Positions 8,824 through 25,467 of a stretch of 50,759 nucleotides of DNA are shown in pieces. A model generated the notes under the pieces. That model was not told where the DNA came from, searched no databases, and saw nothing but the letters and a program-made list of their open reading frames with translations. Each line of letters starts with the position of its first letter. Position 1 is the first letter of the stretch. The stretch is taken from sequence record OR896827.1; one strand, 5' to 3'. The DNA comes from Escherichia phage MikeNSara. The position numbers and the translations under genes are program-made.

Positions 8824-9214
8824 TTTAATGTTGGCGGCAAGAAAGGCGCTGGCGGCTGAATATGAATCACGATTTAAGATAGCCTATGAAAACGTTGATT
8901 TTGTGCCGCCTGGAGATGGTTCTATGTGGTTAAAATTTAACTACATGGAAGCAGACACGGATCGCATATCTCTTGATAGAAAATGTGTTTCTTATATCGG
9001 TTTGGTTCAGGTTGGCATTGTCATTCCTCCTGGCGGTGGCACTGATAAAGCGCGTTTGCTGGCTAAAGAGATTGCGAGATTTTTCTATGATGGTAGAATG
9101 CTTGAAACTGGCTATATTAGCGAGGGGGCAAACGTCCACGCATTACTAAAAAGTGAAACAGGTTGGTTATTGCCGATCCGTTTCAGTGTTAGGCTTGACA
9201 CAAAGGAGGAATAA
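8813..9214 (+). CDS. tail terminator-like protein
   Basis: ORF overlapping upstream stop; position immediately before major tail protein. Confidence 0.45.
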   Translation: MHYDLMLAARKALAAEYESRFKIAYENVDFVPPGDGSMWLKFNYMEADTDRISLDRKCVSYIGLVQVGIVIPPGGGTDKARLLAKEIARFFYDGRMLETGYISEGANVHALLKSETGWLLPIRFSVRLDTKEE

Positions 9215-9216
9215 TC

Positions 9217-9879
9217 ATGCACTTGCCTAATGGTTCTCAAATTTTCATCGGCGTTAATATGGGTGAGCCTATTCAGGCTACGGCTATTTCAAATGCTGAT
9301 GATCCTGTTTTTACGACTGCAAACACTCAAAGCATCAAAAAAGGCGCTTATGTTCTTATTGAAACATCTTCCTGGGGCAAACTTGTTAGTCGCGTGCTTC
9401 GAGTTAAGGAGGTATCAGATGATGCAAGCGTTACTCTTGAGGGTGTAAGCACGAAAGACACCAATGTTTTTCCGGCTGGTTCTAATACCGCAACTTTCCG
9501 AGAAGTAAAATCTTGGGTAGAGATTCCTTGCGTACAGGATCTTGCGCAGGACGGCGGCGAGCAACAGTATTACACTTATCAGTGTTTGGCTGATGACCAG
9601 GAGCAGCAGTTACCGACCTATAAGAGCGCCGTTTCTCTTACCTACACTTTCGCGCATGAATATGACAACCCTATTTATCCGATCTTGCGCGAGGCTGAGG
9701 AATCCGGCGACGTAACCGCTTTGCGTATGTACGTTCCGAAAGCTAAAGAGATGCGTTGCTGGGCTGGCGTATTGTCCTTTAATGACATTCCGCAAACCAC
9801 TATGAACGAAATGGAAACTGTTTCCCTTTCCGTATCTCTGAAAGGTAGATTTACGTTCTTATCTTCCGACATCAATTAA
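9217..9879 (+). CDS. major tail protein
   Basis: RBS AAGGAGGA; 220 aa; followed by strong intrinsic terminator and then the chaperone with frameshift site (canonical V-G-GT-H order). Confidence 0.65.
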   Translation: MHLPNGSQIFIGVNMGEPIQATAISNADDPVFTTANTQSIKKGAYVLIETSSWGKLVSRVLRVKEVSDDASVTLEGVSTKDTNVFPAGSNTATFREVKSWVEIPCVQDLAQDGGEQQYYTYQCLADDQEQQLPTYKSAVSLTYTFAHEYDNPIYPILREAEESGDVTALRMYVPKAKEMRCWAGVLSFNDIPQTTMNEMETVSLSVSLKGRFTFLSSDIN

Positions 9880-9882
9880 AAC

Positions 9883-9906
9883 AAGGGGCGTTGCGCCCCT
9901 TTTTTC
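9883..9906 (+). terminator. intrinsic terminator after major tail protein gene
   Basis: AGGGGCG-TTG-CGCCCCT stem plus T6. Confidence 0.75.
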
Positions 9907-9944
9907 ATTCCTGTAAAATCAATCTATCAAATAAATCAATTCCA

Positions 9945-9964
9945 CTTTTAACAAAAAGTGCTAT
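9945..9964 (-). repeat. 20-bp motif copy in reverse orientation inside late operon
   Basis: CTTTTAACAAAAAGTGCTAT on + strand between major tail terminator and chaperone gene; -10-like TAGATT weak. Confidence 0.5.
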
Positions 9965-9978
9965 AAGGAGATCTTGAG

Positions 9979-10296
9979 ATGGCAAAGATGAAACTAACGT
10001 TAGGCCCACTGCCTGATTTTAAGCTACCTGTTTCTTTCGTGCTTCCAAATGGTGATGAGCAAGTTATTGTTTTTACCGTGCGCCACAAGAAGGCAAGCGA
10101 GATTCACGAACGATACACGGCAGAAAAGCCGATGAGCGACGTAGAAATGATCACCTTCCTTGCTTCCGGTTGGGATCTGGAAGATGAATTTAACGAGGAA
10201 AACGTTGCTAAATTGCTGGATTATTACCCTTCTGCGTCATTATCGCTGACTGGTCATTATATGAAAGCACTTGCGGGGCAGCGGGTAAAAAACTAA
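9979..10296 (+). CDS. tail assembly chaperone (lambda G-like)
   Basis: RBS AAGGAG; 105-aa acidic protein immediately upstream of tape measure; ends just after slippery heptamer A_AAA_AAC. Confidence 0.65.
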   Translation: MAKMKLTLGPLPDFKLPVSFVLPNGDEQVIVFTVRHKKASEIHERYTAEKPMSDVEMITFLASGWDLEDEFNEENVAKLLDYYPSASLSLTGHYMKALAGQRVKN

Positions 10297-10613
10297 AGCG
10301 GGCGGTTTACCTGTTTTACCTCAAGCCGCCAACTGACGCACAATTAGAGGCCGTCGGCCTATCCCGTTCAGACTACGAAGGGGAGGAGCCGCCGGAGGTA
10401 ATTTTTGATGAATCAATGTTTCAATCTTGGGATCTGTTTTGCGCTATGCAGACGCAATGGAGGTCGACTAGCGGCAGTGTGTATGGGTTCGACTATAACG
10501 TTTTGCCTATGCTTTTTGACATTTACAAGATTGAGGATCGGGAGATGGCGCTAAATGATTTGCGCATCATGGAACAAAAGGCGCTAGAAATGATTCATTC
10601 AAACAAAACATAA
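9979..10613 (+). CDS. tail assembly chaperone frameshift product (lambda GT-like, -1 shift at 10287..10293)
   Basis: The -1 frame is open from 10293 to stop at 10613 with no intervening stop; heptamer AAAAAAC sits 1 nt before the 0-frame stop; GC-rich hairpin potential just downstream. Confidence 0.55.
10287..10293 (+). other. -1 programmed ribosomal frameshift slippery heptamer A_AAA_AAC
   Basis: X_XXY_YYZ heptamer in 0-frame of chaperone gene, 1 nt before its stop; -1 frame open to 10613. Confidence 0.6.
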
Positions 10614-10634
10614 GCGCCGCAAGGCGCTTTTTTA
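10612..10634 (+). terminator. intrinsic terminator after chaperone frameshift ORF
   Basis: AAGCGCC-GCAA-GGCGCTT stem plus T6. Confidence 0.65.
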
Positions 10635-10652
10635 ATATCTGGAGGTTTTAAA

Positions 10653-13334
10653 ATGGCTGAGAAATACGCTGGCCTAACGCTAGGCGTTGACGTGTCGCAG
10701 GTCAATAATGCTGTTAAATCATTGCAGCAATTCAAGAAGGCAAACGACGACGCAAAAAAAAGCGTTAATGAATTTGTTGATTCTGAGGTTGTGGCGCGAC
10801 AGCAAGCTAAACAGTTTGCCGAAGAATTGGCGCGCCAGAAAGCAGAATTTAAGAAAATCCAGGAGTCAATTGATCCCACCGCGTCAAAGATGGATAAGCT
10901 GCGAAAGGCAGCGACACAGCTTGATGCGCTATGGAAAAAGGGTATTGTTCCTGATGAGACTTTTTTTGAGCTTGGGGCAATTCTTGAGACACAGCAAAAC
11001 AAGCTGATCGCAACCAAAAAAGCGATGACAGAGGAAGGCCGCGCGGCGCTTGAGGAATCAAAGAACAAAGCGCGTGCAGCGGAAGAGGCTAAAAAATTCA
11101 TCCAGGCTTTGCGTGAGCAGGAAGAAGCAGCCGGAAAAAGCAAGTCTGAATTGCTGGAAATGAAAGCGGCACAGCTTGGAGTTAGCCAGGAGGCAGCACC
11201 TTACATCGCAAGACTGAAAGAGCAGGAAAAGCAGATCCAAAAACTTGGGATTTCTACAGGCCAATACAATCAAGCAATGAAGCTATTGCCAATGCAGATC
11301 ACAGACGTGGTGACTTCACTTGCTTCTGGTATGCCTGTTTGGCTGGTCGCAATCCAGCAGGGCGGACAGATTAAGGATTCTTTTGGGGGCGCATCCAATG
11401 CTTTAAAAGCGTTGCTATCTTTCCTTAATCCGGTAAACGTGGCGTTTGGCTTACTTTCCGGCACGCTGGCAATTGCTGCATATAATGCCTACAAAACACA
11501 GACAGAGTTTGAGGCAATTAAAAAAACCGTTCAGGAAACAACTGGCTTGACTGGTGATTTTGCCGAAAAGATTGCTACCGGAATCCAGGAGCTTTCCGAC
11601 AAGACAGGCGAAAGCGCAGAAGATCTGGCAAAGGCTTACATCACCACGAAAGACGGCGCGAGCGAGGCGATTAAAAAACTGGTTGACGTTGGCATGACTT
11701 ATGATGATGCAAAAAAGAAAGTCAACGAGTACAAAGGCGCGTCTAGCTTTGTCAGCTTGAATAACGAAATTGCAAACCACAAAAACAAAGTCCTTGAGTT
11801 GGGCGACTCGTGGTATGAAGTTTTGAAAGCGAAGCGTGATTACGCTTCCCCGTCCGGCGGCCTGTTAGGTAAAGAGCTTGGCTATGTTAATCCTATGCTT
11901 AAGTTTGCACTTAACACTTATGAAGACATTGGAAAGGTCGTAAAAGATGCGAATAAGGACATGGCTGAACGAGCGGAGCGAATCGACAAAGAAAACCTTG
12001 CCTTGAACAGAGTGAGAGCAGCACAGGAGGCTTTAAACAAAGCCATTGAAGATCAGAAGGGCGTGGCGCGTTCGGCTGATGAAGAACTGAAAAAGCGCGC
12101 GGCTGAAAACGTGGAGTTCAGACGCAAAGAGCTTGAGGAGATCAAGAAGCAGGAGCAGAAAAAGAAAGAGGCTAAAGGTGGAATAGTTCGCGGCCCTACT
12201 GAGCAGCTTGATAAAGAGTTGTACGTTTTAAAAGCGCAACTGGAAACTCTTAAAGAGCATCGCACTGTTAACGATGTTATTTCTCGCCAGCGTAAATCTT
12301 TATGGAGCATCGAAAAGCAGATCGAGATCCTGGAGGGTGCGCAGAGCAAGCGTAAATTGACAGGAGCGGAACAGGCGCTACTAAACGAGCAAAAAGCCGT
12401 TCTTGAAATGGCAAGGCAAAAGGCTGAATTAGGGGATCAGATTGTTTTGCAGGAGCGCAAAAACAAGCTGGAGCAAGATAGCATTAAGTTTATCCGTGAA
12501 ACGCAGGCGGCTATTGATGTGCTTGGCCTTAAGCAACTTGGCTACACTGAAAAGCAGATCGAGCGTGAGCTAGAGTTACGCAAGCTGCGCACCGACTACG
12601 AGGCGCAAGGAGGAAGCGTTAGCGATGAAGTTTTTCAGCAAATGGAGGCGAAACTTAAGCAGTATTATCAGACACAGGATGAGGTTCAAGGCAACTGGTT
12701 GGCAGGAGCAAAAAACGCATGGGAGCTATTCGCGGAAGATGCAAACAATGCCTATGGCAATGTTCAGCAGATCGCAAGCGAGGCGTTAAACGGCCTTACA
12801 AACCAATTAGCGAATTTTATCGCTACTGGCAAGGCAAACTTTAAAGACTTCTCGACGGCTATCATCAAAATGATTATTCAGATGATCACGAAAATGGTTG
12901 TCTTTAATGCGTTATCTGGCCTGATGGGTGGTCAAACCTGGACGATGGGGAGCTTGCTTAAGAACATTGGCGGATTTGCTGGCGGTGGATACACTGGCGA
13001 CGGCGGGAAGTATGAGCCAGCCGGAATTGTCCATAAAGGTGAATTTGTCATGACGAAGGAGGCGACGCAGCGTATCGGGGTAGGCAACTTGTACCGCATG
13101 ATGCGAGGCTATGCTAACGGCGGCGCGGTTGGTAGTTCCGGCTATACTGGCGGTGGAGTTGTCACTGGTGGAGCACCTCAATTTAACATCGGTGGGATTG
13201 ATGTTAGCATCAATAACGGCAGCGATCCGAAGGGCATCGAAACTGGCGTTAAGATGATCTTTACTGATATGATTAAACGTTCCTGTATGCAGGGCGGAGA
13301 GGTTTACGAATTTGTTATGAGCAAGCGAGGTTGA
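10653..13334 (+). CDS. tail tape measure protein
   Basis: 893 aa, long coiled-coil A/E/K/Q-rich N-terminal region, central hydrophobic segment, glycine-rich C-terminus; follows chaperone pair. Confidence 0.85.
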   Translation: MAEKYAGLTLGVDVSQVNNAVKSLQQFKKANDDAKKSVNEFVDSEVVARQQAKQFAEELARQKAEFKKIQESIDPTASKMDKLRKAATQLDALWKKGIVPDETFFELGAILETQQNKLIATKKAMTEEGRAALEESKNKARAAEEAKKFIQALREQEEAAGKSKSELLEMKAAQLGVSQEAAPYIARLKEQEKQIQKLGISTGQYNQAMKLLPMQITDVVTSLASGMPVWLVAIQQGGQIKDSFGGASNALKALLSFLNPVNVAFGLLSGTLAIAAYNAYKTQTEFEAIKKTVQETTGLTGDFAEKIATGIQELSDKTGESAEDLAKAYITTKDGASEAIKKLVDVGMTYDDAKKKVNEYKGASSFVSLNNEIANHKNKVLELGDSWYEVLKAKRDYASPSGGLLGKELGYVNPMLKFALNTYEDIGKVVKDANKDMAERAERIDKENLALNRVRAAQEALNKAIEDQKGVARSADEELKKRAAENVEFRRKELEEIKKQEQKKKEAKGGIVRGPTEQLDKELYVLKAQLETLKEHRTVNDVISRQRKSLWSIEKQIEILEGAQSKRKLTGAEQALLNEQKAVLEMARQKAELGDQIVLQERKNKLEQDSIKFIRETQAAIDVLGLKQLGYTEKQIERELELRKLRTDYEAQGGSVSDEVFQQMEAKLKQYYQTQDEVQGNWLAGAKNAWELFAEDANNAYGNVQQIASEALNGLTNQLANFIATGKANFKDFSTAIIKMIIQMITKMVVFNALSGLMGGQTWTMGSLLKNIGGFAGGGYTGDGGKYEPAGIVHKGEFVMTKEATQRIGVGNLYRMMRGYANGGAVGSSGYTGGGVVTGGAPQFNIGGIDVSINNGSDPKGIETGVKMIFTDMIKRSCMQGGEVYEFVMSKRG

Positions 13335-19323: not shown

Positions 19324-19353
19324 AAAAAAGGGGGCATAGCCCCCTTTAATTTT
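19322..19353. terminator. bidirectional intrinsic terminator between tail operon and convergent minus-strand genes
   Basis: A8-GGGGGC-ATA-GCCCCC-TTT; A-run upstream and T-run downstream. Confidence 0.7.
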
Positions 19354-19966
19354 AATCATAGTGTGATGCATTTATAACCAAAACAGATGAGGCGGTGTAA
19401 ATACCAACAGGTCCAGGGGTTTGTGCAACCTGCCTGGAAAAAGAGTAGATCCCGTTACCATACGCGGCAGCTTGAGACTCAAAAATCATAAATCCACCTA
19501 AAGCCGGATTAGGTACAGAGTTTAACGCTGTTAGTGATGGCATTATTGCGCAAGGGTAGCCCAGGTTAACATCAAACGCGATCCCGCTCACACCAACTTG
19601 CTTTGCATCAAGCGGCCTCATTTTTCCATGATAAACCATTTCACCATGAGCGTTATAAAACGCTATGCCGTGACTACCTGGAGGAGTCACCATGTTACTA
19701 AAAGCATAAACAATAACCTCCCCTTGATTATCAGATCTATCAATTCTTATTGCGTGCCTTCCACCATTGTTAAATTGCGTAAATGATATGTATGATTTAG
19801 CAGTCAATCTAACAAAGAAAAAACATACCCTATCAACAGGAATTGACGAAGTAAAAACGGTTCCGGTATTAGCAGATATTACGGCCCGATCAATTAGATT
19901 AACTGGAGTGAAATCTGGACTTAACCATAACGATCCGTCTGGTTTTTTTATGCTCATCCCGTACAT
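19352..19966 (-). CDS. hypothetical protein (tail-region accessory)
   Basis: Minus-strand ORF converging on J terminator; start moved from TTG 19978 to ATG 19966; N-terminal motif shared with upstream 92-aa ORF. Confidence 0.5.
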   Translation of the reverse strand: MYGMSIKKPDGSLWLSPDFTPVNLIDRAVISANTGTVFTSSIPVDRVCFFFVRLTAKSYISFTQFNNGGRHAIRIDRSDNQGEVIVYAFSNMVTPPGSHGIAFYNAHGEMVYHGKMRPLDAKQVGVSGIAFDVNLGYPCAIMPSLTALNSVPNPALGGFMIFESQAAAYGNGIYSFSRQVAQTPGPVGIYTASSVLVINASHYD

Positions 19967-22134: not shown

Positions 22135-22803
<669 letters not shown>

Positions 22804-22807
22804 TAAA

Positions 22808-22830
22808 CGGGGCGCTTGCGCCCCTTTTGT
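22808..22830 (+). terminator. intrinsic terminator after erf
   Basis: GGGGCGC-TTG-CGCCCC plus T4. Confidence 0.55.
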
Positions 22831-22846
22831 CATAGGAGAAAACAAA

Positions 22847-23299
22847 ATGCACGTTATTACAGGTGAGATCCGAAAAGAGCCAAAAGTAAAGCAAATGCCT
22901 AACGGCAGCACGCTATATGTTGTTGAGCTTTCCGAACGATATAAAGACCGTGAAGGCAATTGGCAGTATACAAACTATGTATTTTTCTTTAACGCGAAAA
23001 CAGACGGCCTGAATGGTTGGTATGCTGAGGCGTTCCAGGTTGGTAAGGTTATTTCTGTTTCCTGCGACACCTTGCGGGTTGAAACGCGAGAATACAACGG
23101 AAAGATTTACAGCACCGTGCAGCCTGGCGGATTTGCAAACTTGCTATTTAGCCAGCGAGGTGAAAGCCAGCAACAATATCAGCAGCGAACGCAAGGAGGC
23201 TTGGGGCAACCACAACAGCAACAGCAACAAAACCATCAACAGCAACCACAGCAAAGCAATCAGCCTCCGATTGACTTTGACGACGACATACCCTTCTAA
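22847..23299 (+). CDS. ssb: single-stranded DNA-binding protein
   Basis: OB-fold N-terminal domain, Q/G-rich linker, acidic C-terminal tail DFDDDIPF; start set to ATG 22847 with RBS AGGAG. Confidence 0.85.
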   Translation: MHVITGEIRKEPKVKQMPNGSTLYVVELSERYKDREGNWQYTNYVFFFNAKTDGLNGWYAEAFQVGKVISVSCDTLRVETREYNGKIYSTVQPGGFANLLFSQRGESQQQYQQRTQGGLGQPQQQQQQNHQQQPQQSNQPPIDFDDDIPF

Positions 23300-23336: not shown

Positions 23337-25467
23337 CTGTATCTGTTGGATTGTTGATTAATTTCGCTACCGCTTTTTTTAGATCCTCTATCTCTTTCTC
23401 CATTTTCTCAATTTTGTTTCCCATGTAGACCATAGCGCAAGCCATATCAGCCATTATAACGTTATTGTCAAGAGCTAGTGTATCATCTGCTTTGTCAACC
23501 ACAATCTGACGATCCACATATTCTTCACCTTCATCATTAACGCCTATAACATCTGCAAAAATGTCCCCTCCAGGTATTAGCTTTACATATTCAGGATCTA
23601 TTTTTAACAGATCCTGCGCTATCATCCCGAATCGCTGGATGTTGCTTCCATTGTATTTAAACATTGTCGGCATCCACTGCATAACGCGATCATAGCTTTC
23701 CTTTCCATCTGTATAAATTATATCGTGCTTTAAATCTCTGTCAGAGTTAGCGGCCTTTTGAAAAATGAAATTTCCACTTGATGACCATGTGGTTATATCG
23801 TTTGATACTGGATTAAACTGGAAGTTACAGAAAAAATCATGATCACCACGAAGCCTTAACGAGCAAAGAGGCCATGCATTATTACCTTGTGAGATAAGAC
23901 CCCAAGTTGCACGAATCGGGTATCCACCAGTTGATTGTGTAGCCCAAGATAATCCAGGACACCAGCCGCCATCATTATTGGTTATAATTTCACCCCAAAC
24001 AAGAGCATTACCCCAATAATTTGGATCGTCCCACCCCATTTGTTGAGTTCTTCCGGTGTATTGAGCAGAATGCGTTCTGCCGTCAGGGTAAAACTTGTGC
24101 ATATAGCTTTGAACACCATGCTTATACAGTTCAATCCCAAAAGACTCAATTTGGGTAGAGCCACCTCTGATCAAACCTGCGATAGCGTAATCGTCATACC
24201 AGTTGTAACGACTTACACCAGTCCATGTGCTGATTGGTGGATTCATAATTGAAAACAATTGCGACGCATTTCGCTCATTCCCATCTACATAAATACCAGC
24301 CCCAGGAGCTAAGGAAATGCTTTTCGCTCCTGAAAAAGCACCATTTTCATTAAACTGATAATACTGTGATGCCCCATTATGAAATACGCCTATTGTATGC
24401 TTTCCTACGCCTAATTGAGTTTCAAAATAAGACTGAGAAGATCCAATATCTTCACCTTGTGTATTCTTTAGTTTTGAATGGTATATACCTGCGTTTGCAG
24501 TAGTTGCATTTTCCGTTTCGTTTTCAACATTAAGACTCAAAAACTTTGGTGAATGTTTTTCGCCAAGTCCTATATTGTTTCTGATGCCATTTGCGTCAAT
24601 AGCTCCAGTGCCACCAGAAGAAATAGCTAAAGGAACAGTTTCAAATGACCCATACCCTGATACGTCCCTCTGGAAAACAAGAAGACCATCATCTCTGATA
24701 ACAAGCCTATATTCTCTATTTCTAGAGTACAAGATAGTATGCACGTAGTCCTGAAAAAATGAATCAATGCTAAGCGTCCGGCGAGCTTCATCAATGTCAG
24801 AAAGATCTTTAAGGTTCTGATCCTTATGCACTAGATTTTCAGGATTTACCTGTTGCGCCCACTGGCGAGCTTCATCACGCGCAGTTTCAGCGCCAGCCTT
24901 TGCATTATTTGCCTCAACGGCATGATTGCCAGCAGTATCGCGCGCCAGTTCAGCCTGATCGCGAGCATCAAAAGCCTCCTGTTTAATAGCTTCCGTTTCT
25001 GCAATAGCAGAATCCTTTATCTGTTGAGTGTCATTTTTTAATTGTTCAGTGGCTGCGCGATCTGTTGCTACTTGTTGCGCAGATTCCTTAGCTTGATTCA
25101 CCAGATCCTTTAAGCCATCCAAATCAAAATCTTTAAAAAACTCTATTGCTTCTGCAATTTCTGTTTCCTTGCTCTGGTAATAACGCAAAGTTTCCGCTAC
25201 ATCCTGCGCAAGCCCGTCAACCGTTAACGAGTCATGAAGCAAGATCAGGTAATTTGTCTTCTGGACTACCGCGCCGCCAGTAGTAATTGCGCGAATGCTT
25301 GTATCGCTAATCACTTCTGTGATCACAGCAGCTTGCAAAGGTTGAGTGAGAAAGAAAATGGTTGCACCTGGGCGAATCAATGTTAATTGCTCGCGCCATT
25401 TTGTGTCGTAACCAGTTACATAACCTTGAGCGTCCATAGACGCTTGGCCTTGTCTGTAAATCGCCAT
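23332..25467 (-). CDS. tail fibre protein with C-terminal intramolecular chaperone (peptidase S74-like) domain
   Basis: C-terminal ~130 aa ([13 protein letters not shown]...[15 protein letters not shown]...coiled coil) resembles auto-cleaving chaperone domain of endosialidase/T5 L-shaped fibres; start moved from GTG 25491 to ATG 25467 (RBS AGGAGG); flanked by bidirectional terminators. Confidence 0.7.

What the first reader, a model, noticed from the sequence alone, without database searches (positions are those of the whole stretch)
10287..10613. G/GT-type programmed -1 frameshift in the tail assembly chaperone
The chaperone ORF (9979..10296) ends one nucleotide after a canonical slippery heptamer A_AAA_AAC (10287..10293). 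The -1 frame is open from there to 10613 with no stop, which would give a ~210-aa fusion, and a GC-rich stem (GCGGGCGG...CCGCC) lies just downstream. Gene order is major tail, chaperone, fusion, tape measure, as in the lambda G/GT paradigm.
Basis: partly seen in the sequence, partly recalled or inferred. Interest (0 to 1): 0.55.

Follow-up and report, generated by a model that had tools for sequence, protein, structure and literature searches.

The report
Tail chaperone -1 frameshift, T1-like phage
This is the ordinary, widely conserved ribosomal frameshift that lets a tailed phage make a short and a long form of its tail assembly chaperone.

Summary
The 105-aa chaperone ORF (9979..10296, Pfam Phage_TAC_4) ends GTA AAA AAC TAA. 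The in-frame heptamer A_AAA_AAC (10287..10293) directly abuts the stop codon. The -1 frame is open to the TAA at 10611..10613 and has no ATG/GTG/TTG before 10416. The predicted fusion is 211 aa, 24.3 kDa.

The window is a Warwickvirus (T1-like, Drexlerviridae) and is 99.4% identical to phage NorthRox over this region.

Comparative data settle the question:
- The 120 nt that GenBank records leave uncoded (10296..10415) evolve as protein in the -1 frame only. pN/pS is 0.10-0.35 there, against 1.3-9.1 in the other two frames.
- All 96 distinct homologous regions keep NNA-AAR-NNN-stop. The variants (A_AAG_GGT, A_AAG_GTC, A_AAA_GTN) are all shift-prone motifs in E. coli.
- In Dhillonvirus-like relatives a -1-frame stop sits directly before AAAAAAC, so the shift window there is 7 nt.

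A hairpin (10301-10308 / 10323-10330, 7-nt spacer) is more stable than its amino-acid sequence requires in several lineages but is missing in others. It is a plausible stimulator, not a proven one.

The parts have no sequence similarity to lambda gpG/gpT, so this is a functional analogue of lambda G/GT. The frameshift has already been noted for T1-like phages. Verdict: real, ordinary, low interest.

The parts
9217..9879 (+). Major tail (tube) protein gene, 220 aa, immediately upstream of the chaperone cassette
   Evidence: Pfam Phage_tail_3 E=2.7e-63; phrog_584 major tail protein E=1.2e-90
9883..9909 (+). Terminator-like hairpin plus T-run between the tube gene and the chaperone gene
   Evidence: 8-pair stem with 6 GC pairs, followed by TTTTTCATT. 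The equivalent site is annotated as a rho-independent terminator in phage T1
9964..9970 (+). Shine-Dalgarno sequence TAAGGAG, 8 nt before ATG 9979
   Evidence: Read directly from the sequence
9979..10296 (+). G-like tail assembly (tape measure) chaperone ORF, 105 aa, 11.9 kDa; the zero-frame product
   Evidence: Pfam Phage_TAC_4 E=5.2e-31 over residues 1-105; size
10287..10293 (+). Slippery heptamer A_AAA_AAC in X_XXY_YYZ register (zero frame GTA AAA AAC)
   Evidence: Of 96 distinct relatives, 72 carry A_AAA_AAC and the rest carry A_AAA_GYN, A_AAG_GTC or A_AAG_GGT. The first A is a synonymous site that never varies
10294..10296 (+). Zero-frame stop TAA directly abutting the heptamer; possible 'shifty stop' contribution
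   Evidence: A TAA or TGA occupies this exact position in all 96 distinct relatives
10301..10330 (+). Candidate stimulatory hairpin GGCGGUUU / AAGCCGCC (10301-10308 with 10323-10330), 14-nt loop, 7 nt after the heptamer
   Evidence: -13.2 kcal/mol, z=-1.3 against dinucleotide shuffles. Only 3.2% of synonymous-codon randomisations fold as well here, and 0-0.4% in T1 and four other lineages, but the hairpin is absent in five lineages. 79% of cells are paired against 28-52% in slid controls
10293..10613 (+). T-like -1-frame extension: 106 sense codons (LKRAVYL...SNKT) plus stop TAA 10611-10613. It is reached only by the frameshift, giving a GT fusion of 211 aa, 24.3 kDa
   Evidence: Pfam DUF1799 E=1.5e-12; phrog_17368 covers both halves. 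No ATG/GTG/TTG before 10416. pN/pS is 0.10-0.35 for 10296-10415 in this frame only
10612..10637 (+). Terminator-like hairpin plus T-run overlapping the T stop codon, ahead of the tape measure gene
   Evidence: 7-pair stem followed by TTTTTAAT. Annotated as a terminator at the same place in T1 and in phage Sip
10653..13334 (+). Tape measure protein gene, 893 aa
   Evidence: Pfam TMP_2 E=1.2e-36 and Tape_meas_lam_C E=1.9e-22

Best explanation
This is a programmed -1 ribosomal frameshift in the tail assembly (tape measure) chaperone gene of a T1-like siphophage.

Most ribosomes read GTA AAA AAC and terminate at TAA 10294-10296, giving the 105-aa G-like chaperone. A minority slip back one nucleotide on A_AAA_AAC: tRNA-Lys moves from AAA to AAA and tRNA-Asn from AAC to AAA. 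They then read CTA AAG CGG... and continue to 10613, giving a 211-aa G-T fusion with junction ...QRVKN-LKRAVYL...

Shown here:
- the anatomy of the site;
- that the -1-frame segment with no start codon is a conserved protein-coding sequence;
- that the slip site is conserved at synonymous positions.

Inferred:
- that the fusion is actually made;
- that its level is low (a few percent), as in lambda and IS1;
- that the hairpin 7 nt downstream and the abutting stop codon raise the level;
- that, as in lambda, the G part binds the tape measure protein and the T part recruits the tube protein, with both leaving before the virion is complete.
For: 1. Anatomy. The heptamer is in register, the stop abuts it, the -1 frame is open for 106 codons, and there is no start codon before 10416.

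2. Families and position. The two halves match Phage_TAC_4 and DUF1799. One PHROG profile (17368, 213 positions) spans both halves. The cassette lies between the tube and tape measure genes.

3. The 'gap' is coding. For 10296-10415, pN/pS against 8 relatives is 0.10-0.35 in the -1 frame and 1.3-9.1 in the other two frames. There are no -1-frame stops in 33 loci. Diversity by codon position is 0.23/0.16/0.57, the same pattern as in G and in the 65-aa ORF. Upstream of the heptamer the variation follows the zero frame.

4. Site conservation. In 96 distinct regions, down to 38% T-part identity, the pattern is always NNA AAR NNN stop. The codon before Lys is GTA, GCA, GAA or CAA, so its third base is always A. 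Val there has synonymous diversity 0.0, against 0.5-0.78 at neighbouring codons.

5. The variants are also slippery. A_AAG_GGT, A_AAG and A_AAA are experimentally shift-prone in E. coli. A_AAA_AAC is the proven IS1 site (PMC4066793) and is used for g-t frameshifting in the archaeal virus HCTV-2 (PMC5009743).

6. The shift window is narrow. In Dhillonvirus-like relatives a -1-frame TGA directly precedes AAAAAAC, limiting the shift to 7 nt.

7. tblastn. 1,095 of 1,148 phage records cover at least 80% of the fusion, in two pieces in nearly every listed record.

8. No in-frame fusions. None of the 150 best T-like proteins out of 318 hits in 1.84 billion representatives is an in-frame G-T fusion.

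9. Prior annotation. The frameshift is annotated in phage Shelby and noted for T1-like phages Stevie and U136B.
Against: - There is no experimental evidence for this phage or, as far as the searched literature shows, for any T1-like phage.
- A_AAA_AAC is a low-efficiency heptamer in E. coli (PMC4066793).
- The hairpin is not significant against dinucleotide shuffles (z=-1.3). It is absent in several related lineages and shows only one lineage-level compensatory change.
- Most GenBank records, including RefSeq T1, annotate two separate CDSs.
- The relatives share ancestry, so the counts of conserved sites are not independent observations.
Confidence: 0.9

Rival explanations
1. There are two independent genes, as annotated in most GenBank relatives. 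The chaperone terminates at 10296, a separate 65-aa protein starts at ATG 10416, and 10297-10415 is non-coding spacer.
For: NorthRox, JLBYU16, Sip, FritzSarasin, Jahat and T1 are annotated this way. The Met at 10416 is present in 19 of 20 T1-like representatives. SD-like GGAGG lies at 10394-10398.
Against: The 'spacer' has pN/pS 0.10-0.35 in the -1 frame, no stops in any relative, and LKRAVYL directly after the junction is among the best-conserved residues. GGAGG is 17 nt from ATG 10416, too far for a normal RBS, and it simply encodes the conserved Glu-Val. Webervirus, Dhillonvirus and PHB10 homologues have no Met at that position. T1's annotated start is at a different Met. Additional weak internal initiation cannot be excluded, but it would not explain the conserved upstream 40 codons.
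Confidence: 0.03
2. RNA polymerase, not the ribosome, slips on the A6 run. It adds one A to a fraction of the mRNAs, which are then translated normally into a fusion with junction VKK-LKR instead of VKN-LKR.
For: There is a homopolymer of six A at 10287-10292. Two IMG/VR relatives (L011, L027) carry A5 at this run, which shows the run is error-prone at least for sequencing or replication.
Against: Efficient transcriptional slippage in bacteria is described for runs of about 9 A or T (PMC5009743). Relatives with the same architecture have only A3-A4 runs (GTA AAG GGT, GCA AAG GTC, GCA AAA GTT), where polymerase slippage is implausible but tRNA-Lys slippage on A_AAR is known (PMC4066793).
Confidence: 0.04
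3. This is a sub-variant of the main explanation, not exclusive of it. The shift is a single-tRNA P-site slip, not a tandem slip. Either peptidyl-tRNA-Asn moves from AAC to AAA while the slowly decoded stop UAA waits in the A site ('shifty stop'), or tRNA-Lys slips on A_AAA before the next codon is decoded. The protein product is identical.
For: A stop codon directly follows the motif in all 96 distinct relatives. Lineages with A_AAA_GTT or A_AAG_GTC cannot re-pair an A-site tRNA-Val, so at least there a single tRNA-Lys slip on the tetramer is needed. A_AAG and A_AAA tetramers are shift-prone in E. coli (PMC4066793). The 'shifty stop' concept is established (Weiss et al. 1987, cited in PMC5009743).
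Against: In the GTT and GTC variants the stop is not in the A site when tRNA-Lys is in the P site, so the stop cannot be the common driver. The full heptamer, including its first A, is conserved in 72 of 96 regions, which fits tandem slippage. The stop may be kept simply to preserve the C-terminus of G.
Confidence: 0.25
4. The pattern is a chance juxtaposition or a sequencing or assembly error that splits one gene.
For: In-frame heptamers are frequent (45 in this window), and open -1 frames beyond gene ends are common in packed phage genomes.
Against: The same two-frame arrangement is present in 1,095 independent phage records and in 96 distinct regions with the motif at the same codon. There are no in-frame fusions among 150 representative homologues.
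Confidence: 0.01

Closest known systems
Phage lambda G/GT tail assembly chaperone frameshift (Levin, Hendrix & Casjens 1993; Xu, Hendrix & Duda 2004, 2013, 2014; summarised in PMC5009743)
   Same: Two overlapping ORFs lie between the major tail gene and the tape measure gene. [quoted passage not shown] The expected outcome is a short abundant product plus a rare fusion. Even RefSeq lambda lists T as a separate CDS.
   Different: There is no sequence similarity (BLASTP E>100 for G and 0.97 for T), and the Pfam families differ: Phage_TAC_4/DUF1799 here against Phage_TAC_2/Phage_tail_T in lambda. The heptamer is A_AAA_AAC rather than G_GGA_AAG. Here the stop abuts the heptamer, whereas in lambda it lies 5 codons downstream. 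Here there is a candidate hairpin at +7 nt. Terminator-like hairpins flank the cassette here.
Annotated chaperone frameshifts in other Drexlerviridae: Klebsiella phage Shelby (MK931445), Citrobacter phage Stevie (PMC4319613), E. coli phage U136B (PMC8104045)
   Same: These are homologous proteins (47-50% identity to the fusion) at the same genomic position, with the shift at the same codon. Shelby carries a joined CDS labelled 'tail assembly chaperone frameshift product'.
   Different: Shelby and other Webervirus phages use GCA AAA GTT TAA, a tetramer-type A_AAA site, rather than the full heptamer. The Warwickvirus records closest to this window lack the joined annotation.
IS1 InsAB' transposase frameshift
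   Same: It uses the same heptamer A_AAA_AAC, decoded by E. coli ribosomes. It is a proven -1 frameshift of low efficiency that sets a low amount of a fusion protein (PMC4066793).
   Different: It is a mobile-element transposase with an unrelated function. No stimulator has been established for IS1 (PMC4066793). Whether its stop codon abuts the heptamer was not checked here.
E. coli dnaX gamma/tau frameshift
   Same: It is a -1 shift on an A-rich heptamer with a downstream hairpin at a short spacer.
   Different: dnaX uses the much more efficient A_AAA_AAG and also has an upstream Shine-Dalgarno-like stimulator. No conserved SD-like element is seen upstream here; the upstream sequence is GCN GGN CAR CGN with varying third bases. 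The dnaX shift produces a shorter product, not a longer one.

Membership tests
Conserved tail-assembly-chaperone -1 frameshift class (lambda G/GT paradigm, Xu-Hendrix-Duda 2004) | Two ORFs located between the major tail (tube) gene and the tape measure gene | tested here: met
   Tube gene 9217-9879 (Phage_tail_3), G 9979-10296, T extension to 10613, TMP 10653-13334
Conserved tail-assembly-chaperone -1 frameshift class (lambda G/GT paradigm, Xu-Hendrix-Duda 2004) | Second ORF in the -1 frame, overlapping the end of the first and lacking its own start codon or RBS | tested here: met
   The -1 frame is open 10212-10613. The first ATG/GTG/TTG is at 10416, 40 codons after the junction, and the nearest SD-like motif is 17 nt from it
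Conserved tail-assembly-chaperone -1 frameshift class (lambda G/GT paradigm, Xu-Hendrix-Duda 2004) | [quoted passage not shown] | tested here: met
   A_AAA_AAC at 10287-10293, zero frame GTA AAA AAC TAA
Conserved tail-assembly-chaperone -1 frameshift class (lambda G/GT paradigm, Xu-Hendrix-Duda 2004) | Arrangement and slip site conserved among diverged relatives, with the extension under protein-level selection | tested here: met
   96 distinct regions all have NNA AAR NNN stop. pN/pS is 0.10-0.35 in the -1 frame only. The heptamer's first A is fixed at a synonymous site
Conserved tail-assembly-chaperone -1 frameshift class (lambda G/GT paradigm, Xu-Hendrix-Duda 2004) | Both the short product and the fusion are made at a fixed low ratio, and both are required for tail assembly | not testable with these tools
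   Needs a reporter assay, western blot or proteomics, plus phage genetics
Conserved tail-assembly-chaperone -1 frameshift class (lambda G/GT paradigm, Xu-Hendrix-Duda 2004) | G part binds the tape measure protein, T part binds the tube protein, and neither is present in virions | not testable with these tools
   Inferred by analogy with lambda (PMC5009743)
Lambda gpG / gpT protein families (Pfam Phage_TAC_2 PF06894, Phage_tail_T PF06223) | Sequence or profile similarity to lambda gpG and gpT | tested here: not met
   There are no Pfam hits to these families at E<=0.01. BLASTP against lambda G gives no alignment and against T gives E=0.97. Lambda's own proteins do hit those families. Fold-level relatedness was not tested
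Pfam Phage_TAC_4 (PF08748) plus DUF1799 (PF08809) chaperone pair of T1-like phages | Profile matches above the curated cut-offs for both halves | tested here: met
   107.9 bits against a cut-off of 21.1 and 48.0 bits against a cut-off of 26. phrog_17368, phrog_569 and phrog_680 also match
Drexlerviridae, Tempevirinae, Warwickvirus (T1-like phages) | Nucleotide identity to classified members over this region | tested here: met
   99.4% to phage NorthRox and 95-98% to 43 other records over 9200-10700. The whole-genome criterion was not tested
Hairpin- or pseudoknot-stimulated -1 frameshift signals (dnaX / IS911 type) | Stable, conserved 3' structure 5-9 nt after the heptamer | tested here: inconclusive
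   An 8-bp hairpin lies at +7 nt, -13.2 kcal/mol, z=-1.3. It is stronger than synonymous-codon nulls in 7 lineages and not in 5. 79% of cells are paired, with one lineage-level compensatory change. No Rfam frameshift element matches
Hairpin- or pseudoknot-stimulated -1 frameshift signals (dnaX / IS911 type) | Upstream Shine-Dalgarno-like stimulator about 10 nt 5' of the heptamer | tested here: not met
   The upstream sequence is GCN GGN CAR CGN (Ala-Gly-Gln/His-Arg) with variable third bases. No GGAG or GAGG motif is conserved

The most novel reading that the evidence does not exclude
The arrangement 'A_AAR, one codon, stop' is invariant across every homologue examined, and many lineages have a hairpin exactly 7 nt downstream. 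This could mark a termination-coupled ('shifty stop') mode of -1 frameshifting that differs from lambda's. In that mode the G:GT ratio would be set by competition between release factor and slippage, and so would respond to the host's translational state. The four interchangeable motif types would form a natural series tuning that ratio.
Probability: 0.12. Interest if true: 0.4.

Novelty: already known. Interest (0 to 1): 0.18.

Why it matters
The main value is annotation quality. The nearest GenBank records inspected (NorthRox, JLBYU16, Sip, FritzSarasin, tunzivis) and RefSeq T1 either list a truncated 55-65-aa 'hypothetical protein' or omit the second ORF. They leave about 40 conserved codons unannotated and miss the 211-aa fusion, which is probably essential for tail assembly.

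The family also offers a tidy natural series of slip motifs at one fixed codon (A_AAA_AAC, A_AAG_GGT, A_AAG_GTC, A_AAA_GTN), with or without a downstream hairpin. That series could be used to study how low-level frameshift efficiency is tuned in E. coli phages.

It does not change what is understood about phage tail assembly or about recoding.

Tried and rejected
- Rfam scan of 9800-10800 at E<=1. It gave only sub-threshold sRNA hits driven by the terminator hairpin at 9883-9901 and no frameshift element.
- PDB sequence search with the fusion. Nothing relevant; the best hit had E=0.58.
- The search for homologous proteins with the fusion. It returned only 3 hits, all T-part ORFs. Two of them (P0001, P0003) carry N-terminal extensions that are out-of-frame translations of the end of G, which are gene-caller artefacts.
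- Exhaustive HMMER search with the chimeric fusion. No in-frame G-T fusions appeared among the top 150 hits. The one long hit, P0041 (2059 aa), is a cohesin-repeat scaffoldin and is spurious.
- Second-longest -1 extension after an in-frame heptamer (AAAAAAA at 23374-23380, minus strand, 76 codons). It lies at the end of the 719-aa tail fibre gene, and the extension runs through a terminator and antisense across the SSB-like gene. Judged to be chance.
- Upstream SD-like stimulator. None is conserved.
- Dinucleotide-shuffle test of the hairpin. Not significant (z=-1.1 and -1.3). A synonymous-codon null was used instead.
- One paper search failed on a term shorter than 3 characters.
- Structure prediction and fold search were not run. 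Pfam membership was unambiguous, and the allowed inputs (window sequence plus 3 homologues) would have given a shallow alignment.

Full report
**What is in the sequence.**
The ORF 9979..10296 starts at an ATG 8 nt after TAAGGAG and encodes 105 aa ending ...ALAGQRVKN. Its last codons are GTA AAA AAC TAA. A_AAA_AAC (10287-10293) is therefore an in-register X_XXY_YYZ heptamer, and the stop codon follows it directly.

The -1 frame is open from 10212 to the TAA at 10611-10613. The other frame is full of stops. In the -1 frame there is no ATG, GTG or TTG before 10416. A -1 slip on the heptamer gives ...QRVKN-LKRAVYLFYLKPP...SNKT, 211 aa and 24.3 kDa, against 11.9 kDa for the short product.

**Identity of the parts and of the genome.**
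- The upstream ORF matches Pfam Phage_TAC_4 (E=5e-31) and the -1 extension matches DUF1799 (E=1.5e-12).
- The flanking genes are the tail tube protein (Phage_tail_3) and the tape measure protein (TMP_2, Tape_meas_lam_C).
- One PHROG profile of 213 positions matches the two halves end to end.
- The region is 99.4% identical to Escherichia phage NorthRox and 95-98% identical to 43 other records. The records inspected are classified as Warwickvirus (Drexlerviridae, T1-like).

In these records, and in RefSeq T1, the region is annotated as two separate CDSs or the second ORF is missing. This leaves about 120 nt 'non-coding'. Klebsiella phage Shelby (Webervirus) carries a joined 'tail assembly chaperone frameshift product'. 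Genome announcements for the T1-like phages Stevie and U136B mention the conserved frameshift.

**Is it more than chance?**
From this sequence alone, only moderately. The window has 45 in-register heptamers in 12,583 codons. In a packed phage genome the -1 frame is often open beyond a gene's end because the next gene lies there. This heptamer is, however, the only one that abuts a stop, and it has the longest -1 extension.

The decisive evidence is comparative:
- *The extension is coding.* I collected homologous regions from IMG/VR and GenBank. Across the 120 nt between the G stop and ATG 10416, pN/pS against eight diverged relatives is 0.10-0.35 in the -1 frame and 1.3-9.1 in the other two. 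No relative has a -1-frame stop there. Diversity by codon position (0.23/0.16/0.57) matches that of G and of the downstream 65-aa segment.
- *The switch point is at the heptamer.* The residues right after the junction, LKRAVYL, are among the most conserved. Upstream of the heptamer the variation follows the zero frame, and the position of the upstream -1-frame stop wanders from -7 to -169 nt. Translation in the -1 frame therefore begins at the heptamer, not before it and not at 10416.

**The slip site.**
In 96 distinct regions, down to 38% identity in the T part, the pattern is always NNA AAR NNN stop:

| Motif | Regions |
|---|---|
| A_AAA_AAC | 72 |
| A_AAA_G(T/C)N | 20 |
| A_AAG_GTC | 3 |
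| A_AAG_GGT | 1 |

- The codon before Lys is GTA, GCA, GAA or CAA, so its third base, the first A of the heptamer, never varies.
- Where that codon encodes Val its synonymous diversity is 0.0, against 0.5-0.78 for neighbouring four-fold codons. Asn is always AAC.
- In Dhillonvirus-like relatives a -1-frame TGA directly precedes AAAAAAC, so the shift can only occur within those 7 nt.
- All four motif types are experimentally shift-prone in E. coli. A_AAG is the best tetramer, and A_AA.G_GG.U and A_AA.A_AA.C are on the shift-prone list. A_AAA_AAC is a low-efficiency motif but is the proven IS1 site (PMC4066793).
- A_AAA_AAC is also the g-t shift site of the archaeal virus HCTV-2 (PMC5009743).
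- A low-efficiency motif fits a system that, in lambda, needs about 30 G per GT (PMC5009743).

**Stimulators.**
The best-predicted structure downstream is an 8-bp hairpin, GGCGGUUU (10301-10308) with AAGCCGCC (10323-10330). It has a 14-nt loop, starts 7 nt after the heptamer and has a free energy of -13.2 kcal/mol. Against dinucleotide shuffles it is unremarkable (z=-1.3).

Both arms are fixed largely by the amino acids Arg-Ala-Val and Lys-Pro-Pro, so I used a null that keeps the protein and redraws synonymous codons:
- Only 3.2% of such sequences fold as well in the window.
- The figure is 0-0.4% in T1, Hanrivervirus and three other lineages, and 4.9% in Dhillonvirus, which has a different GC-rich stem at the same spacing.
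- Five lineages (L023, AN_ECEAS, phiEB49, Jahat, PHB10) have no such structure.

On a 34-sequence alignment 79% of cells pair, against 28-52% for slid controls. The only compensatory change is a single-lineage event.

My reading is that the hairpin is a plausible, lineage-dependent stimulator, at roughly even odds. No SD-like element is conserved upstream.

The stop codon abutting the motif is invariant. This is compatible with a 'shifty stop' contribution (Weiss et al. 1987, cited in PMC5009743). It cannot be the common driver, though, because in the A_AAA_GTT lineages the stop is not in the A site when tRNA-Lys slips.

**Rivals.**
- *Independent initiation at 10416.* It cannot explain the conserved 40 codons upstream. 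The nearest SD-like motif is 17 nt away, and Webervirus, Dhillonvirus and PHB10 homologues lack that Met.
- *Transcriptional slippage.* It is unlikely on A6 and implausible for relatives with A3-A4 runs (PMC5009743).
- *Error or chance.* It is excluded by 1,095 phage records with the same two-frame arrangement. There are also no in-frame fusions among the 150 best of 318 representative T-like proteins.

**Comparison with known systems.**
It works like lambda G/GT but is not a sequence relative. Lambda gpG and gpT belong to Phage_TAC_2 and Phage_tail_T, and BLASTP finds nothing between the pairs. Lambda uses G_GGA_AAG with the stop five codons downstream.

The system belongs to the broad conserved chaperone-frameshift class defined by Xu, Hendrix and Duda (2004), and to the T1-like Phage_TAC_4/DUF1799 pair. 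The frameshift has already been annotated or mentioned for that pair.

**Verdict.**
The feature is real and correctly interpreted, and it is already known in kind and in this phage family. Its practical value is in correcting annotation.

What remains inferred is that the fusion is actually produced, at what level, and whether the hairpin and the stop contribute.

Noticed in passing
window 9883-9909 and 10612-10637: Terminator-like hairpins with T-runs bracket the chaperone cassette. One follows the tube gene and one overlaps the T stop codon just before the tape measure gene. The same sites are annotated as terminators in T1 and Sip. They may step down transcription from tube to chaperone to tape measure in line with the required stoichiometry.
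   Followed up: partly
L011:1808-1830 and L027:1804-1826: Two IMG/VR relatives carry GTAAAAACTAA, with five A instead of six, at the slip site. L011 also has further frame breaks downstream, so these are most likely homopolymer sequencing or assembly errors, but genuine A-run length variants were not excluded.
   Followed up: partly
Proteins P0001, P0003, P0005 (homologues of window 10212-10613): Database gene calls for the T-like ORF often start at an upstream codon inside the G overlap. This gives 25-30 N-terminal residues that are out-of-frame translation of the end of G (for example P0003 and P0005, ending ...SSRKKLKRAVYL and ...ASCKSLRRAVYL). These are gene-caller artefacts caused by the unrecognised frameshift.
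   Followed up: partly
NC_005833 (T1) 19339-19506; relatives' CDSs equivalent to window 10416-10613: RefSeq T1 (ST39, 55 aa) and the Warwickvirus records inspected annotate only a truncated C-terminal piece of the T domain, starting at different Met codons. Some records (tunzivis, aalborv, AN_ECEAS) omit it altogether. PHROG-derived labels call all three genes 'tail length tape measure protein'.
   Followed up: yes
window 23374-23380, minus strand: An in-register AAAAAAA lies 13 codons before the end of the 719-aa tail fibre gene, with a 76-codon open -1 frame. The extension runs through a terminator-like hairpin and antisense over the SSB-like gene (22796-23299), so it looks like chance.
   Followed up: partly
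window 10380-10410: Strong SD-like strings GGGGAGGAG (10380-10388) and GGAGG (10394-10398) lie inside the T coding region, where they encode the conserved EGEEPPEV. GGAGG sits 9 nt before an out-of-frame ATG at 10408, which opens a 48-aa ORF in the G frame, and 17 nt before ATG 10416. Whether any internal initiation or ribosome pausing occurs there was not examined.
   Followed up: no
window 9873-9956, minus strand: There is a sub-threshold Rfam match to the Salmonella sRNA family STnc50 (35 bits against a gathering score of 55, E=5e-4). It overlaps the bidirectional terminator hairpin after the tube gene and is probably driven by that hairpin.
   Followed up: no
Protein P0041 (2059 aa) from the representative search: A cohesin-repeat scaffoldin scored E=9e-8 against the T domain, with 10 matched stretches. 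Pfam shows 14 cohesin domains and no DUF1799, so the match appears to be spurious repeat-driven similarity.
   Followed up: partly
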